A stretch of DNA of 13,730 nucleotides from a virus: the UHGV virus genome UHGV-0087644, one strand, 5' to 3'. Position 1 is the stretch's first letter. Each line of letters begins with the position of its first letter. The notes under the pieces are model-generated. The model ran no database searches and was not told the origin of the DNA. It worked only from the letters and a program-made list of their open reading frames with translations. Positions 3,838-10,198 of this stretch are shown in pieces. The translations under genes were made by a program, and so were the position numbers.

Positions 3838-4806
3838 TTAGTAGGTTATTTTTGTTGCGAATACTTCGCCTTTTACGATGGCTGTTATGATATTTTTAGC
3901 AACATCTTCTGATGCGCCAACCTTGATAAGGTCAGCAAGTATTTTGTTATTTACTTCTTTCCGGTGAGCTTTATCCTTTGCTCTACGCTCTTCTTCGTCC
4001 TTGATTCTTTTTCCTTCTGCTATTCTGGCTTGCTCTTTTGCTTCAGCCTCGCGCCGGATTCGTTCAGCCTCCTCCTGTGCTTTTCGGCGTTCTGCTTCAA
4101 TTGCCGCCTGCTTTTCTCTTTCAGCTCGTTCTGCTGCCTCTTTTGCTTCGCGCTGTGCTCGTTGCTCGGCTTCAATGCGTTCACGCTCTGCACGTTCCGC
4201 TGCGGCCTTAGCTTCTGCTTCTCGCCTTGCTGCTGCTTCAATTTCGGCTTTTGCCTTTGCTTCGGCTTCTGCTCTGGCTTTCTCTTCAGCTTCTCTTTTT
4301 AAGCGTTCTTCATACTCTCGCTTTTCCTGCTCCGCTTTGAGTCTTGCCTCTTCTCTTTGGCGGTCAAATTCGCGATCCATCAAAATAGCTATTTCATGGT
4401 CAGACTCAATTTGCTTTGCGAGAGCTTCAGCTGCTGCCTTAGCTTCTTCTTCGGCTTTAATCCGTGCCTGTTCCTCCTCATAATCAGTAAGAGGCTGGCG
4501 CGCCTTGGCTTTCAGTTCATCAAGGCGATCGCGCACTGTCTTGCGGTTGGCATCAATTAGCTTTGGAATTTCCTTCAGTTCAGCAACAAGGTCTTTGCCA
4601 AGACCATCGAGATATGTTTTCGTCTGCGCAACTTTATACGCCAGAGAAGCGATCTCCTTTCTGCCCTTTGCCGTTGTGATATCAGGCACAAAGGACATAA
4701 CTTCACGTTCAACCCTTTGAAGGATTTCTTCAATCTGGTCGGCAGACTGAAATACAGTCATTGCATTTGCTTTTTCAATAACAACTAAATCTGTTACTTC
4801 ACTCAT
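3838..4806 (-). CDS. coiled-coil protein with long E/R/K/A-rich helical segment, function unknown
   Basis: 322-aa track ORF; ATG 4806 with SD GGAGG; folded-looking N-terminal about 110 aa, then about 160 aa of charged low-complexity helix (EAEAKAKAEIEAAARREAEAKAAAERAERE...), then short C-terminal domain ending KITY. Confidence 0.7.
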   Translation of the reverse strand: MSEVTDLVVIEKANAMTVFQSADQIEEILQRVEREVMSFVPDITTAKGRKEIASLAYKVAQTKTYLDGLGKDLVAELKEIPKLIDANRKTVRDRLDELKAKARQPLTDYEEEQARIKAEEEAKAAAEALAKQIESDHEIAILMDREFDRQREEARLKAEQEKREYEERLKREAEEKARAEAEAKAKAEIEAAARREAEAKAAAERAERERIEAEQRAQREAKEAAERAEREKQAAIEAERRKAQEEAERIRREAEAKEQARIAEGKRIKDEEERRAKDKAHRKEVNNKILADLIKVGASEDVAKNIITAIVKGEVFATKITY

Positions 4807-5428: not shown

Positions 5429-5629
5429 TCAGGCAGCCTTGTTATTCTGTTTACCAAGTTCTCTGGCAATCATTGCCGTCGTTCGTATTGCCCATTTATC
5501 GACATATTTCCCATCTTCCATTACAGGAAACATTTCTTCAGGCTTAACCATGCATTCCGATTGCAGCTTGCATCCATTGCATCGCTTGAATTGTCCACAC
5601 CATTGATTTTTATCAATAGTCGTAGTCAT
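5429..5629 (-). CDS. ral: Ral-like restriction-alleviation protein
   Basis: 66-aa track ORF MTTTIDKNQWCGQFKRCNGCKLQSECMVKPEEMFPVMEDGKYVDKWAIRTTAMIARELGKQNNKAA; matches my recollection of lambda Ral (same length, same N-terminus). Confidence 0.6.
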   Translation of the reverse strand: MTTTIDKNQWCGQFKRCNGCKLQSECMVKPEEMFPVMEDGKYVDKWAIRTTAMIARELGKQNNKAA

Positions 5630-5842: not shown

Positions 5843-6025
5843 TCAGCGTACCTCTACTCCTGATGCGCCTCCATCGGGGTCAGGCGACCCATTAAAAGAC
5901 TTTCTGTGCTGAATTTCGTAACGAAGCGTCTTAATCGAAACGTCCACGGCATCGGCAAAACTGATGCCTTCTTCATTGGCCAGTTCCTGAACTACTCTTT
6001 TCAGTTCATTGTCCAAATTTTCCAT
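5843..6025 (-). CDS. hypothetical small protein (60 aa)
   Basis: Track ORF 5843-6049 trimmed to ATG 6025, preceded by AGGGGTGAGGG; MENLDNELKRVVQELANEEGISFADAVDVSIKTLRYEIQ... Confidence 0.45.
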   Translation of the reverse strand: MENLDNELKRVVQELANEEGISFADAVDVSIKTLRYEIQHRKSFNGSPDPDGGASGVEVR

Positions 6026-6100
6026 ACCCTCACCCCTTTGTTTATTCACCGCAGGCCACTCGACCCGCTCGATTCGTTCTGTGCGTAATGCTTGCGCCGA

Positions 6101-6259
6101 TCAGACACCCCAAACTCTGAACCACCAACGAAGAAACATGACGACTGGCGGGGTAGACAGAAGAATGGCCGCATTGATAAGAAGAATGGCCGCAGTGATA
6201 AGCAGACCCAAAATGACCCCCTGCACTACGACCGGGAGTTTTTCATACAGTTTTTTCAT
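6101..6259 (-). CDS. small single-pass membrane peptide (52 aa)
   Basis: Not in track; SD AAGGAG 5 nt before ATG 6259; MKKLYEKLPVVVQGVILGLLITAAILLINAAILLSTPPVVMFLRWWFRVWGV has one hydrophobic helix; contains an in-frame 21-bp tandem duplication. Confidence 0.4.
   Translation of the reverse strand: MKKLYEKLPVVVQGVILGLLITAAILLINAAILLSTPPVVMFLRWWFRVWGV
6160..6201. repeat. 2 x 21-bp tandem direct repeat (one mismatch) inside the membrane-peptide ORF
   Basis: GAAGAATGGCCGCATTGATAA / GAAGAATGGCCGCAGTGATAA; in-frame, encoding duplicated LITAAIL/LINAAIL heptads. Confidence 0.6.
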
Positions 6260-6261
6260 GG

Positions 6262-6603
6262 CTACTCCTTAAGAAGGCGCTCAAGGAATGCGCCATTACA
6301 GTCAATTACATCGATGATCTCTTTGGCTAATGAATCGATATCGTCGCTCGATTCGAAGTCATCCTGTGGGATGTAAAAGCCACCCTCAGTTTTAAACATA
6401 ATTTCCTTGACGGTTAATGCTGCAACCTCATACATAAAGCCATAAACAATGCGTCGAGGGGTGTTATACCTGAGTCCGAGGATCTTTAATTTTTCTGACT
6501 CCTGAGTCAGCTGGTCGTATGCCTTTACCAGCTCCGCTATCAGTCCCTTTTTCAGCTCACCACGCAGTACGTACATCCCGTTAGCCGTTTTATTTTCCAT
6601 CAC
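6262..6603 (-). CDS. hypothetical protein (113 aa)
   Basis: Track ORF; start overlaps upstream stop (6600-6603); no motif recognised. Confidence 0.55.
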   Translation of the reverse strand: MMENKTANGMYVLRGELKKGLIAELVKAYDQLTQESEKLKILGLRYNTPRRIVYGFMYEVAALTVKEIMFKTEGGFYIPQDDFESSDDIDSLAKEIIDVIDCNGAFLERLLKE

Positions 6604-6874: not shown

Positions 6875-6897
6875 AATAAAAAACCCACCGAAGTGGG
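6875..6897 (-). terminator. rho-independent terminator candidate (minus strand; tL1-like position after the first gene downstream of N)
   Basis: 5-bp GC stem CCCAC/GTGGG with CGAA loop (6884-6897), abutting the stop of the upstream ORF, followed on the minus transcript by a U-run (plus-strand ATAAAAAA at 6876-6883). Confidence 0.45.
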
Positions 6898-7242
6898 CTA
6901 TGACCATTTTTTATTTGGATTTCGTTGGTGAGCGTGATTAACAACTCTGTGCATTACATCCTCATATTTTTCATCTTCAATTTTTTCGACATCGCGAGGA
7001 AATGGTGTTGCTAATGCTTTGTCAACTTTGTCCATTGGTTCTTCATTAATCTTATATTCAGGACCGTCATCTATAGCATTAAATCCAGGTGTTACACCGT
7101 TTTTTAATGCATATGCTATCCTTTTTTCCCATCTCGCTATTCTCCTCCTGTCTCGAGATGTAAGACCTCTATCAGATACTTTTCTGTTTTGTCCGCGGTC
7201 AGGATTAACATAAATAGTCTTTTTCACCATAAGCATACTCAA
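6898..7242 (-). CDS. hypothetical protein with arginine-rich N-terminal region (114 aa)
   Basis: Track ORF; start overlaps N stop (ATGA); SRDRRRIARWEKRIAYALKNG is basic; followed directly by a terminator. Confidence 0.5.
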   Translation of the reverse strand: MSMLMVKKTIYVNPDRGQNRKVSDRGLTSRDRRRIARWEKRIAYALKNGVTPGFNAIDDGPEYKINEEPMDKVDKALATPFPRDVEKIEDEKYEDVMHRVVNHAHQRNPNKKWS

Positions 7243-7544
7243 TAAGCACCGTACGGTAGTTTACTGTACAATTTTATTTTTTGGACTGCATGTATTTTGT
7301 TTCCTAACGGGTTTGAATCTTTGTAATAAATACTTCTATTTTTTCGAACGACTTCTTCTTTCTTCTTGCAGCAAAGGCTTCCTAGTGATGCTGCTTTGTC
7401 TGCTCTGACGCAACCAGAGAGCTTTAGCGCAATTTTTCGCGCCAGTGCTTCATTACTGCGTCGCTCGGCAATAAGTTCTGCTCTGCGAGCTTTGTAGCGG
7501 CTTTTTGCCGTACCTTTGGATTCTTTCCAGACAATGGTTACCAT
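7239..7544 (-). CDS. N: N-like transcription antitermination protein (phi21-type arginine-rich motif)
   Basis: Track ORF 7239-7574 trimmed to ATG 7544 (SD AGGAG); N-terminus MVTIVWKESKGTAKSRYKARRAELIAERR matches the phi21 N arginine-rich RNA-binding peptide as I recall it; nutL lies upstream. Confidence 0.75.
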   Translation of the reverse strand: MVTIVWKESKGTAKSRYKARRAELIAERRSNEALARKIALKLSGCVRADKAASLGSLCCKKKEEVVRKNRSIYYKDSNPLGNKIHAVQKIKLYSKLPYGAY

Positions 7545-7654
7545 AATGGTCTCCTTTAAGTGGCTTTGGCGCATGACGCGTCGAGGTGCTTATCTTCTCG
7601 ATCGCTGTCTTGCAGCTGCAATTCGCGCCATCCCCAAAACCACTCAAGTTCTGG

Positions 7655-7834: not shown

Positions 7835-7860
7835 AAATAAAAAAGGGGCGAAAGCCCCTT
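7835..7860 (-). terminator. rho-independent terminator for the cI transcript
   Basis: Stem AAGGGGC/GCCCCTT (7843-7849 / 7854-7860) with GAAA loop, followed on the minus strand by UUUUAUUU; overlaps the cI stop codon. Confidence 0.55.
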
Positions 7861-8509
7861 AAGGAAGGTTTGCTAGCTTGGCATCAACGACAACGCCAAT
7901 GATTTTACAGTTCCCATTGATTTCAATCATTGGGTATTGTGGATTGAGTGGTTTCAGGAATTTTCTACCGGCATCAATAACTAACTTTTTGAATGTCGCC
8001 TCGTTTTCCCCTTCAAGTTTGGCGACTACCAGCTTTCCATTACGTGGTTCGACTTCTGGGTCGACGAGAATAATCATCCCCTCAGGAATACTCAGTCCTG
8101 CCGGGGCAGTCATTGAATCGCCTTTAACGTCGAGCCAAAAAGAGTCTTCAGAACAATCTACCGTTGTGTCGTACCAGTTATCTATTGCACGCCTATGATA
8201 TGGCTCTACAGCTTCCATCCAACATCCTGCGCTTACCCAACTAATTAGAGGATACGAACCTCTTGGATCATGCCTGCTGTGATAGGCAATGTTTGAAAGA
8301 CTATCCTCTCCTTTCAACAGGTAATCAGGGGAGCACTGCAAAGCCTTGGCTAAGGCCAATAGGTTTTCGCCATTGGGCTCAGTTTCAGATCGCTCCCATT
8401 GGGAAATAGCAACATTAGACACGCCAACCATCTTGCCAAGGGCAGCCTGCCTAATCTTGAGTTCTTTTCTGCGAGCGCGAATACGCTCACCCATCAGTTG
8501 TGTATTCAT
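7859..8509 (-). CDS. cI: CI-type prophage repressor (HTH + S24 LexA-like peptidase domain)
   Basis: 216-aa track ORF; N-terminal HTH (QAALGKMVGVSNVAISQWER); C-terminal FWLDVKGDSMTAPAGLSIPEGMIILVDP...ATFKKL...FLKPLNPQYPMIE closely parallels the lambda CI C-terminal domain. Confidence 0.9.
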   Translation of the reverse strand: MNTQLMGERIRARRKELKIRQAALGKMVGVSNVAISQWERSETEPNGENLLALAKALQCSPDYLLKGEDSLSNIAYHSRHDPRGSYPLISWVSAGCWMEAVEPYHRRAIDNWYDTTVDCSEDSFWLDVKGDSMTAPAGLSIPEGMIILVDPEVEPRNGKLVVAKLEGENEATFKKLVIDAGRKFLKPLNPQYPMIEINGNCKIIGVVVDAKLANLP

Positions 8510-8589: not shown

Positions 8590-8775
8590 ATGTACAAAAA
8601 AGATGTTATTGACCACTTCGGAACCCAGCGTGCTGTTGCTAAAGCACTAGGCATTAGCGATGCAGCAGTCTCTCAGTGGAAAGAAGTTATCCCAGAGAAA
8701 GACGCCTATCGATTGGAAATCGTTACAGCTGGCGCCCTGAAGTATCAAGAAAGTGCTTACCGCCAAGCGGCATAA
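8590..8775 (+). CDS. cro: Cro-like repressor (YdaS/Cro HTH family)
   Basis: 61-aa track ORF immediately downstream of pR, divergent from cI; HTH region GTQRAVAKALGISDAAVSQW. Confidence 0.75.
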   Translation: MYKKDVIDHFGTQRAVAKALGISDAAVSQWKEVIPEKDAYRLEIVTAGALKYQESAYRQAA

Positions 8776-9219: not shown

Positions 9220-9381
9220 ATGACAAAACGTCGTAAGAAATACCAGGAAAAAGAAGAGATTCGACACCCTGATTCACCTGAGGGATTAGTGGTAGCCGCA
9301 GCAAATAACAGGGCGTTCGCAGAGCGCCTTGTTGGTGTTTACAGACTAGCCAAAGCAGGAGTGAAACATGGGCGTCGTTAA
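9220..9381 (+). CDS. possible small basic protein (53 aa) between cII and O
   Basis: Not in track; ATG 9220 preceded by AGGAG; [53 protein letters not shown]; 3' end overlaps the O start by 14 nt. Confidence 0.3.
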   Translation: MTKRRKKYQEKEEIRHPDSPEGLVVAAANNRAFAERLVGVYRLAKAGVKHGRR

Positions 9382-10198
9382 GTTAGCTGATTACAGGCCT
9401 CAACTGGAGGTCGTGGAGCATCGCGTGGCAGAACTCGAAGATGGCTACACTCGGACTGCAAACACACTGTTAGAAGCCGCCATGCTTTCTGGACTTACTC
9501 TACATCAGTTACTGATTGTTATGGCTGTGTGGCGCAAGACATACGGTTACAACAAAAAAATAGATTGGATCGGAAACGAACAGTTCGCTGAACTCACTGG
9601 CATGGCACCAACCAAATGCTCTACCGCCAAAAACGAGCTTATCAGAATGGGAGTTCTCATTCAGGTTGGGCGTCAAGTTGGTATGAATACAAACATTTCC
9701 GAGTGGAAAACGAAAGTTAACGGATTCGGTAAAACATTTACCAATTCGGTAAAACAAACCTTCACCAAATCGGTAAAAAGCAATTTACCGAATCAGTCAA
9801 ACACAAAAGACAATATACAAAAGACAATAAATACAAATACCCCCTTACCCCCTAACGGGGATGGCGATGGGCAGGTTAAACCTGAACGTCGCAAGGCAGA
9901 ACGAATCGACTACGAATCCTTCCTGAACGCCTACAACACCGAAGTCGGTGACAGACTTCCACACGCTGTTGCGGTCAACGAGAAACGAAAACGCCGCCTG
10001 AAGAAAATCATCCCGCAACTGAAAACGCCAAACGTGGACGGTTTCAGGGCGTATGTCAGGGCTTTTGTGCATCAGGCCAAGCCGTTTTACTTCGGAGACA
10101 ACGACACGGGCTGGACGGCTGATTTTGATTACCTGCTTAGGGAAGACTCGTTAACGGGAGTTCGGGAAGGGAAGTTTGCAGACAGGGGGATTGCATGA
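9368..10198 (+). CDS. O: replication initiation protein O homolog
   Basis: 276-aa track ORF after cII; SD AGGAG; iterons and an A/T-rich stretch inside the coding region; stop overlaps helicase start (ATGA). Confidence 0.75.
9724..9840. repeat. origin of replication: iterons plus A/T-rich region inside the O gene
   Basis: Direct repeats ATTCGGTAAAAC (9724-9735, 9744-9755), ATCGGTAAAAAG (9768-9779), inverted copy TTTACCGAAT (9784-9793), then A-rich 9801-9840. Confidence 0.6.

What the first reader, a model, noticed from the sequence alone, without database searches (positions are those of the whole stretch)
6160..6201. In-frame 21-bp tandem duplication inside the membrane-peptide ORF
Two adjacent 21-bp copies differing at one base duplicate a heptad of the predicted TM helix (LITAAIL / LINAAIL). 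A recent slipped-strand or recombinational duplication that lengthens a TM helix by seven residues is unusual and could alter membrane span or oligomerisation; it may also mark a hypervariable locus.
Basis: seen in the sequence. Interest (0 to 1): 0.35.

Follow-up and report, generated by a model that had tools for sequence, protein, structure and literature searches.

The report
Duplicated heptad in prophage membrane peptide
A 21-base stretch has been copied in tandem inside a tiny, uncharacterised membrane-peptide gene of an E. coli lambda-like prophage, making its membrane helix seven residues longer; this is a real and common natural variant, produced by an ordinary kind of mutation.

Summary
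Two head-to-tail 21-bp copies (minus strand 6202..6182 and 6181..6161, 20/21 identical) encode LITAAIL/LINAAIL in a 52-aa ORF (6259..6101, minus strand).

The ORF is a real gene. It has a strong Shine-Dalgarno site, dN/dS of 0.05-0.13 against diverged homologs, and always sits in the early-left (pL) operon of lambdoid prophages, downstream of N/Nun.

The duplication is derived and polymorphic. Every diverged homolog, and many near-identical E. coli prophages, carry one copy (45 aa). A rare allele with two perfect copies exists. No three-copy allele was found. The junction shows TCTnCT microhomology 21 nt apart, which fits replication slippage. AlphaFold2 extends the first helix from 19 to 26 residues.

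Both alleles occur in many mosaic prophage backgrounds, so the duplication is younger than the family but is not a one-clone event.

The repeat itself is not hypervariable. A G-run 15 nt upstream of it (G4-G9) is: frameshift alleles that destroy the peptide are about as common as intact ones.

The peptide family is a tiny orphan with no match in any library searched; its function is unknown. The mutation type is ordinary, so interest is low to moderate.

The parts
6182..6202 (-). Copy 1 of the 21-bp unit (CTT ATC ACT GCG GCC ATT CTT = LITAAIL); identical to the single copy in one-copy alleles
6161..6181 (-). Copy 2 of the 21-bp unit (CTT ATC AAT GCG GCC ATT CTT = LINAAIL). It carries one C>A change (Thr>Asn) at window position 6174. 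Copy 2 is absent from one-copy alleles, and it matches copy 1 perfectly in the rare allele P0013/L012
6101..6259 (-). Gene for a 52-aa single-pass membrane peptide (45 aa in the ancestral one-copy form). N-terminus MKKLYEK, hydrophobic helix, STPP break, then a Trp/Arg-rich C-terminal helix. PGAP does not annotate it in the three complete E. coli genomes examined
   Evidence: (dN/dS 0.05-0.13)
6265..6270 (-). Shine-Dalgarno AAGGAG, 5 nt before the ATG. It lies inside the last codons of the upstream gene, so translational coupling is likely
   Evidence: invariant in all aligned loci
6217..6221 (-). G5 run (codons Gln-Gly-Val) 15 nt upstream of the repeat. Its length is G4, G5, G6, G7 or G9, or it is interrupted, in other prophages. 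Only G5 keeps the peptide frame
6262..6603 (-). Upstream 113-aa gene of unknown function. It abuts the peptide gene in nearly all the near-identical E. coli loci but is absent upstream of the peptide gene in the diverged homologs
5843..6025 (-). Downstream 60-aa gene of unknown function (MENLDNEL...), usually linked to the peptide gene
6882..6899 (-). Terminator-like hairpin plus T-run just after the Nun-like gene. It implies that the genes downstream, including the peptide gene, need antiterminated pL transcription (inference)
6898..7574 (-). N-like (7239..7574) and Nun-like (6898..7242) genes at the head of the pL operon. The cI-like repressor lies at 7859..8509(-)

Best explanation
The 42 bp are a genuine in-frame tandem duplication of seven codons in a real but uncharacterised gene. 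The gene encodes a small single-pass inner-membrane peptide and sits in the delayed-early leftward (pL) operon of a lambdoid (HK97-like/Wanchaivirus-like) E. coli prophage. Gene order is: cI | N-like, Nun-like, terminator, 73-aa zinc-finger-like ORF, 113-aa ORF, PEPTIDE, 60-aa ORF, ral ... kil, erf. The ancestral gene has one copy (45 aa). Replication slippage between the imperfect direct repeats TCTGCT and TCTTCT, 21 nt apart, produced a perfect duplicate, an allele that still exists but is rare. A later C>A change turned Thr into Asn in the second copy, giving the now common 52-aa allele seen in this window. The insertion lengthens the predicted hydrophobic helix from 19 to 26 residues (about 10 A) and leaves the rest of the protein unchanged. 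Seven residues is close to two helical turns, so the helix faces stay roughly in register. This allele is one of three common alleles that circulate by recombination among mosaic prophages: one-copy intact, two-copy intact, and one-copy with a G-run frameshift that is probably null. Shown: that the duplication is real, its polarity (derived), its polymorphism, that the frame is coding, and the operon context. Inferred: the slippage mechanism, dependence on antitermination, membrane insertion, and that the 52-aa allele still works. My best guess for function, held with low confidence, is a dispensable accessory peptide that acts on the host inner membrane during lytic growth, by exclusion or host modulation like other small genes at this operon position.
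For: Repeat. Copy number is 2 in the window, elppa10, L005 and L007, and 1 in Wanchaivirus PDP110P2, MEI008, ETEC4091, L006, L041 and L042, with otherwise almost identical DNA. Exact-sequence look-ups: the 52-aa T/N allele is on 248 contigs (533 index blocks); the perfect-duplicate allele on 2-3 contigs; the 45-aa allele on 129 contigs (308 blocks); neither of the two 3-copy sequences tried is present. Diverged homologs P0007-P0010 (69-73% identical over the whole 52-aa query by BLASTP, 80-84% over aligned residues once the seven-residue gap is set aside) all have one heptad. Coding: dN/dS is 0.054 (window vs L008) and 0.13 (L008 vs L009), with 22 of 29 and 28 of 37 differences at third codon positions; the SD AAGGAG is invariant. 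Microhomology: TCT.CT matches at a distance of 21 nt in the one-copy allele. Helix length: H10-35 versus H10-28, pLDDT 84 and 82. Context.
Against: No experiment or family match indicates any function: Pfam, PHROGs, NCBIfam, PADLOC, PDB sequences and Rfam gave no match to the peptide or the locus. Roughly 40% of the loci counted carry frameshifts that remove the peptide, so the gene is dispensable, and the 52-aa allele could be a tolerated neutral variant rather than a working one. The perfect-duplicate allele could instead have come from gene conversion of the T/N allele rather than being the intermediate. Contig and block counts come from called genes in unevenly sampled E. coli assemblies, so they are not true allele frequencies.
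Confidence: 0.85

Rival explanations
1. The locus is a contingency (phase-variable) locus. The repeat and the nearby G-run are mutational switches that prophage populations use to turn the peptide on or off or to change its form.
For: G-run lengths of 4, 5, 6, 7 and 9, plus interrupted forms, are seen among otherwise nearly identical loci. There are also independent frameshifts in an A-run (P0044) and a C-run (P0011). In the 10 loci found by DNA search (BLAST matches and exact-pattern scans) rather than by protein sequence, 6 are frameshifted. All three minus-strand frames are open across the gene in this window.
Against: The 21-bp repeat shows only two states. A G5 run is short for high-rate slippage. 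The G6 allele is linked to a specific T>G SNP and is stable enough to be found in 269 index blocks across many backgrounds, which suggests stable lineages rather than rapid switching. The G-run is absent from diverged homologs (CAAGGAGTA, CAAGGTCTG), so it is not a conserved design feature. The alternative-frame products are not conserved, and L009 has stops in those frames.
Confidence: 0.1
2. The two-copy Thr/Asn allele is adaptive. A longer helix with a buried Asn changes membrane span or drives oligomerisation, and the allele spread because of that.
For: The T/N allele is the most frequent allele counted (248 contigs, 533 blocks), against 2-3 contigs for the perfect duplicate. In the loci fetched, 14 of 15 two-copy alleles are in frame, though most were retrieved by searching for the in-frame protein. 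From general knowledge, not tested here: Asn inside transmembrane helices promotes helix-helix association.
Against: The counts are confounded by clonal sampling of E. coli and by the way loci were retrieved. No functional assay exists. One two-copy allele (elppa10) is frameshifted. A neutral variant hitch-hiking on successful prophages explains the same data.
Confidence: 0.15
3. The ORF is not a gene and the repeat is a DNA- or RNA-level element (binding-site iteron, structured RNA) or an assembly artefact.
For: PGAP does not annotate the ORF in the three complete E. coli genomes examined. All three frames are open here.
Against: The substitution pattern shows strong purifying selection on this frame only. 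The SD and ATG are conserved. One-copy alleles are common, so two copies are not required. There is no Rfam match and no promoter-like site. The duplication is seen in hundreds of independent assemblies from NCBI, ENA, JGI and Logan.
Confidence: 0.02

Closest known systems
In-frame tandem duplication or indel polymorphism by replication slippage at short direct repeats
   Same: Head-to-tail copies with no spacer; unit length a multiple of three; microhomology (TCTnCT) at the ends of the unit in the unduplicated allele; sister alleles that lack the insert.
   Different: Nothing essential differs. The only particular point is that the unit is exactly one heptad of a transmembrane helix in a 45-aa protein, so it changes the protein's length by 16%.
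Homopolymer-tract phase-variable (contingency) genes of bacteria and phages
   Same: A poly-G tract inside the coding region differs in length between close relatives and toggles the reading frame.
   Different: The in-frame tract has only 5 G. It is not conserved in diverged homologs. The alleles look like stable lineages. No switching has been shown.
Small accessory genes at the head of lambdoid pL operons (ral, sieB, kil, cIII)
   Same: Same operon position (after N/Nun and before cIII/kil); small; dispensable; shuffled as a module among mosaic prophages.
   Different: No sequence similarity to any of them. ral and kil are separately present in this window. The function of this peptide is unknown.
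Small hydrophobic toxins and lysis proteins (type I toxins such as Hok/Ibs/TisB; holins and pinholins)
   Same: A peptide of about 50 aa with one hydrophobic helix and charged ends. Frequent null alleles would fit a product that is costly when expressed.
   Different: It is not in a lysis cassette. It has no promoter of its own, and no antisense RNA family was detected. It matches no toxin or holin family. Toxicity has not been tested.

Membership tests
Slippage-type in-frame tandem duplication (derived indel allele) | Two adjacent direct copies with no spacer, unit length divisible by 3, reading frame kept | tested here: met
   21-bp unit, 20/21 identity, ORF intact at 52 aa
Slippage-type in-frame tandem duplication (derived indel allele) | Close relatives carry the unduplicated sequence, and outgroups show that this is the ancestral state | tested here: met
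   One-copy alleles in near-identical modules; all diverged homologs have one copy
Slippage-type in-frame tandem duplication (derived indel allele) | Short direct repeat (microhomology) flanking the unit in the ancestral allele | tested here: met
   TCTGCT / TCTTCT 21 nt apart, 5 of 6 matching; 2-nt CT ambiguity at the junction
Variable-number tandem repeat / hypervariable repeat locus | Three or more copy-number states among close relatives | tested here: not met
   Only 1 and 2 copies seen. Two candidate 3-copy sequences are absent from about 15 billion proteins, and no such cluster appeared in the homolog search
Homopolymer phase-variable gene | Tract length differs between close relatives and shifts the frame | tested here: met
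   G4, G5, G6, G7 and G9 and interrupted forms, giving 63-66-aa out-of-frame products
Homopolymer phase-variable gene | High-frequency reversible switching within a clone | not testable with these tools
   Needs deep sequencing or reporter assays. Linkage of the G6 allele to a T>G SNP argues for stable lineages
Homopolymer phase-variable gene | The tract is conserved as a feature of the gene family | tested here: not met
   Diverged homologs encode Gln-Gly-Val/Leu as CAAGGAGTA or CAAGGTCTG, with no G-run
Known phage or defence protein families (Kil, SieB, CIII, Ral, holins, type I toxins, PADLOC systems) | Significant match to the family profile | tested here: not met
   No hit for the 45- or 52-aa peptide in Pfam, PHROGs, NCBIfam or PADLOC or in PDB sequences. 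A profile search of 1.84 billion representatives found only this family
Single-pass membrane peptide | A hydrophobic helix of about 19 or more residues flanked by charged residues | tested here: met
   Best 19-aa Kyte-Doolittle window scores 2.48 (45 aa) and 2.76 (52 aa). AF2 helices are 10-28 and 10-35. Actual membrane insertion was not tested

The most novel reading that the evidence does not exclude
The peptide is costly or toxic to the host membrane, and its activity is tuned in nature by an allelic series: a 19-residue helix, a 26-residue helix, a 26-residue helix with a buried Asn, and recurrent homopolymer knock-outs. On this reading the heptad duplication is a selected change in membrane span or oligomeric state of a new family of lambdoid early-operon membrane effectors, and not a neutral indel.
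Probability: 0.12. Interest if true: 0.45.

Novelty: new member of a known kind. Interest (0 to 1): 0.2.

Why it matters
The mutation type is textbook, so the direct importance is small. Three things are useful. (1) The work shows that a 45-aa ORF left unannotated in the three complete E. coli genomes examined is a real gene under purifying selection, in a well-studied operon position of lambdoid prophages. (2) It provides a natural allelic series (19- versus 26-residue helix, with or without a buried Asn, plus null alleles) that could be used directly to ask what this orphan peptide does and how helix length matters for a minimal membrane protein. (3) It shows that about 40% of the sampled loci are frameshifted, which is a caution for automated annotation and a hint that the gene is dispensable or costly.

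Tried and rejected
- Family and structure searches on the peptide (Pfam, PHROGs, NCBIfam, PADLOC, PDB sequences) and Rfam on the whole window all returned nothing.
- A profile search of 1.84 billion representative proteins found only the family itself, so there are no remote relatives to borrow a function from.
- Two scans of GTDB species-representative genomes, one with protein patterns and one with a degenerate DNA pattern, found nothing. The gene is absent from all representative genomes.
- tblastn of the peptide against 50,697 phage records found only Wanchaivirus PDP110P2, which is frameshifted and unannotated.
- The metagenome scan gave only 2 loci.
- I tried to identify the hosts of the diverged homologs by BLAST of their flanks; this was uninformative.
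- Three literature searches found nothing on this peptide or on comparable TM-heptad duplications in phages.
- I considered whether the products of the two alternative frames (63-65 aa) could be functional, and rejected it. They are not hydrophobic, and those frames contain stops in the diverged homolog L009.
- I considered an iteron or binding-site reading of the repeat, and rejected it. There are no further copies in the window, and one-copy alleles are common.
- SNP haplotypes flanking the repeat are too few and too recombined to show whether the duplication arose once.

Full report
**1. The observation**

The window contains a tandem repeat at 6159..6206 with period 21, 2.3 copies and 92% matches. 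Read on the minus strand in codon register, the copies are CTT ATC ACT GCG GCC ATT CTT (6202..6182) and CTT ATC AAT GCG GCC ATT CTT (6181..6161). They differ at one base (window 6195 versus 6174), which changes Thr to Asn.

The 21-mer, allowing up to three mismatches, occurs nowhere else in the window and in none of 200 shuffles. The analytic expectation for such a tandem in 13.7 kb is about 2e-5.

The copies lie in frame in ORF 6259..6101 (minus strand), 52 aa: MKKLYEKLPVVVQGVILGLLITAAILLINAAILLSTPPVVMFLRWWFRVWGV.

**2. Is the ORF a gene?**

PGAP does not annotate it in the three complete E. coli genomes that carry the locus. In this window all three minus-strand frames are open across it. 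So the question had to be tested. Four lines of evidence say it is a gene.

- **Translation signals.** An AAGGAG Shine-Dalgarno site sits 5 nt before the ATG, inside the last codons of the upstream gene. It is invariant in all aligned loci.
- **Homologs.** A search of 5.8 billion protein clusters found in-frame homologs, 69-85% identical to the 52-aa query by BLASTP (80-98% over aligned residues once the seven-residue gap is set aside).
- **Substitution pattern.** At the DNA level the diverged homologs differ mostly at third codon positions (22 of 29 and 28 of 37 differences). dN/dS is 0.054 (window vs L008) and 0.13 (L008 vs L009). In L009 the other two frames contain stops.
- **Predicted structure.** The product has a charged N-terminus and a strongly hydrophobic helix, with a best 19-residue Kyte-Doolittle window of 2.5-2.8. 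An STPP break follows, then a Trp/Arg-rich second helix. AlphaFold2 gives the same two-helix picture with pLDDT 82-84.

**3. Context**

The window is the immunity and early region of a lambdoid prophage.

- Rightward of the repressor: cI-like repressor 7859..8509(-), P22-type cro 8590..8775(+), cII, O, and a DnaB-type helicase.
- Leftward: an N-like gene 7239..7574, a Nun-like gene 6898..7242, a terminator-like hairpin 6899..6882, and a 73-aa zinc-finger-like ORF.
- Then a 113-aa ORF, the peptide gene, a 60-aa ORF, ral (5429..5629), a 99-aa ORF and a 322-aa ORF, followed by kil and erf.

The peptide gene is therefore a delayed-early pL gene. Its dependence on antitermination is an inference from the hairpin.

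The closest phage record is Wanchaivirus PDP110P2 (Hendrixvirinae), 97% identical over 851 bp. In the diverged homologs the gene is again in the pL operon, directly after N (L008), next to sieB (L009, L010), or after the repressor region (L011). The 113-aa neighbour is missing there, so the peptide gene is an independent module.

**4. Is the duplication ancestral or derived, fixed or polymorphic?**

- **DNA alignment.** Near-identical loci show two copies in the window, E. coli elppa10, L005 and L007. They show one copy in Wanchaivirus PDP110P2, E. coli MEI008 and ETEC4091, L006, L041 and L042.
- **Diverged homologs.** P0007-P0010 all have one heptad, so one copy is the ancestral state.
- **Exact-sequence look-ups among about 15 billion proteins.** The 52-aa Thr/Asn allele is on 248 contigs (533 index blocks). 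The 45-aa one-copy allele is on 129 contigs (308 blocks). A 52-aa allele with two perfect copies (LITAAIL LITAAIL; P0013, locus L012) is on 2-3 contigs. Neither of the two three-copy sequences tried is present. No 59-aa three-copy cluster appeared in the homolog search.
- **Junction.** In the one-copy allele the unit is flanked by TCTGCT and TCTTCT, 21 nt apart, with 5 of 6 bases matching. This is the usual substrate for replication slippage.

The most economical history is slippage giving a perfect duplicate, followed by a C>A change (Thr>Asn) in the second copy. Gene conversion in the opposite direction cannot be excluded.

The window shares only 18-43% of 31-mers with other two-copy loci. 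The one-copy and two-copy alleles each occur with several different repressors, N/Nun types and downstream genes. The module itself is more than 99% identical among alleles. The duplication is therefore younger than the gene family but old enough to have been recombined into many mosaic prophages. It is not an event confined to one clone.

**5. Structural consequence**

AlphaFold2 predicts helix 10-28 plus helix 30-43 for the 45-aa form, and helix 10-35 plus helix 37-50 for the 52-aa form. The insert extends the first helix by exactly seven residues, about 10 A, and leaves the rest unchanged.

Whether this changes tilt, span or oligomerisation is untested. That a buried Asn can promote helix association is general knowledge and was not tested here.

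**6. Frameshift variation next to the repeat**

Fifteen nucleotides upstream of the repeat is a G5 run (window 6217..6221, minus strand). Among otherwise almost identical loci the run varies.

| G-run form | Where seen | Product |
|---|---|---|
| G4 | L001, L006; P0037, 16 contigs | 63 aa, out of frame |
| G6 linked to a T>G SNP | L003, L004, L041; P0043, 217 contigs, 269 blocks, many backgrounds | 65 aa, out of frame |
| G7, G8C, G9 and similar forms | P0038-P0040, P0047 | out of frame |
| GGGGGGTGGGG | elppa10 (two-copy allele) | out of frame |

Separate frameshifts occur in an A-run (P0044) and a C-run (P0011).

All of these replace the hydrophobic helix with non-hydrophobic sequence. In the 10 loci found by DNA search (BLAST matches and exact-pattern scans), 6 are frameshifted. 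By contig counts about 40% are.

The G-run is not present in the diverged homologs. The G6 allele behaves as a stable lineage. I therefore read these as ordinary null mutations at mild hot spots in a dispensable, possibly costly, accessory gene, and not as a designed phase switch. The phase-switch reading keeps about 10% probability.

**7. Comparison with what is known**

The mutation belongs to a known kind: a slippage-type in-frame tandem duplication. All three defining features tested were met. It fails the test for a variable-number repeat, because only two states exist.

The peptide belongs to no described family. There is no hit in Pfam, PHROGs, NCBIfam, PADLOC or PDB sequences, and Rfam gave no match across the window. 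Only three representatives appear in a 1.84-billion-protein profile search, all from this family. Nothing was found in 185,579 species-representative genomes, and no relevant literature turned up.

By position and size it resembles the small accessory genes at the head of lambdoid pL operons (ral, sieB, kil, cIII). It is not a member of any of those families.

**8. Verdict**

The finding is real. The suggestion that the repeat marks a hypervariable copy-number locus is not supported. The variability at this locus lies in a neighbouring homopolymer.

The event is an ordinary type of mutation in an orphan, dispensable prophage gene. Interest is low to moderate (0.2). The main residual value is the natural allelic series it offers for studying an uncharacterised 45-aa membrane peptide.

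Noticed in passing
window 6898..7574 (-): An N-like antiterminator gene (7239..7574, phrog_271, E 1e-31) is followed directly by a Nun-like transcription-termination factor gene (6898..7242, phrog_5632, E 9e-71) and then a strong terminator-like hairpin (6899..6882). From memory, HK022 carries nun in place of N, so having both in tandem in one pL operon is worth a look. PGAP labels the Nun-like gene 'antitermination protein N' in related E. coli genomes.
   Followed up: partly
window 6029..6083 (-); L008 and L011 downstream of the peptide gene: The 55-nt block CACAGAACGAATCGAGCGGGTCGAGTGGCCTGCGGTGAATAAACAAAGGGGTGAG lies between the peptide gene and the next gene. It is 100% identical in L008 and L011, whose peptide ORFs differ from the window's at about 20% of bases. 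It may be a mosaic-junction or recombination linker sequence, or a functional element that also supplies the next gene's ribosome-binding site.
   Followed up: no
window 6050..6260 (-): All three minus-strand reading frames are open across the peptide gene. As a result, frameshift alleles yield 63-72-aa products that end just before the next gene, and gene callers then annotate them as hypothetical proteins (for example P0043, on 217 contigs).
   Followed up: partly
L009 4001..4081 and L010 3578..3658: In two diverged prophages the peptide gene is called with a 27-aa N-terminal extension (MLAQNLAVGVWRAREPDPVKTG...). It lies directly after an oppositely oriented sieB, with no recognisable N gene between the repressor and the peptide. 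The extension may be a miscalled start that overlies a regulatory RNA or promoter region.
   Followed up: no
window 9732..9778: A 24-bp tandem repeat (2 copies, 86% matches), together with nearby 7- and 14-bp repeats at 9799..9837, lies inside the replication protein O gene (9368..10198). This looks like the origin iterons expected in lambdoid O genes.
   Followed up: no
window 4211..4294 (-), inside the 322-aa ORF 3838..4806: A degenerate hexamer/18-mer repeat (GCTTCT, about 14 copies, 63% matches) lies inside a conserved 322-aa pL-operon protein of unknown function (phrog_1376).
   Followed up: no
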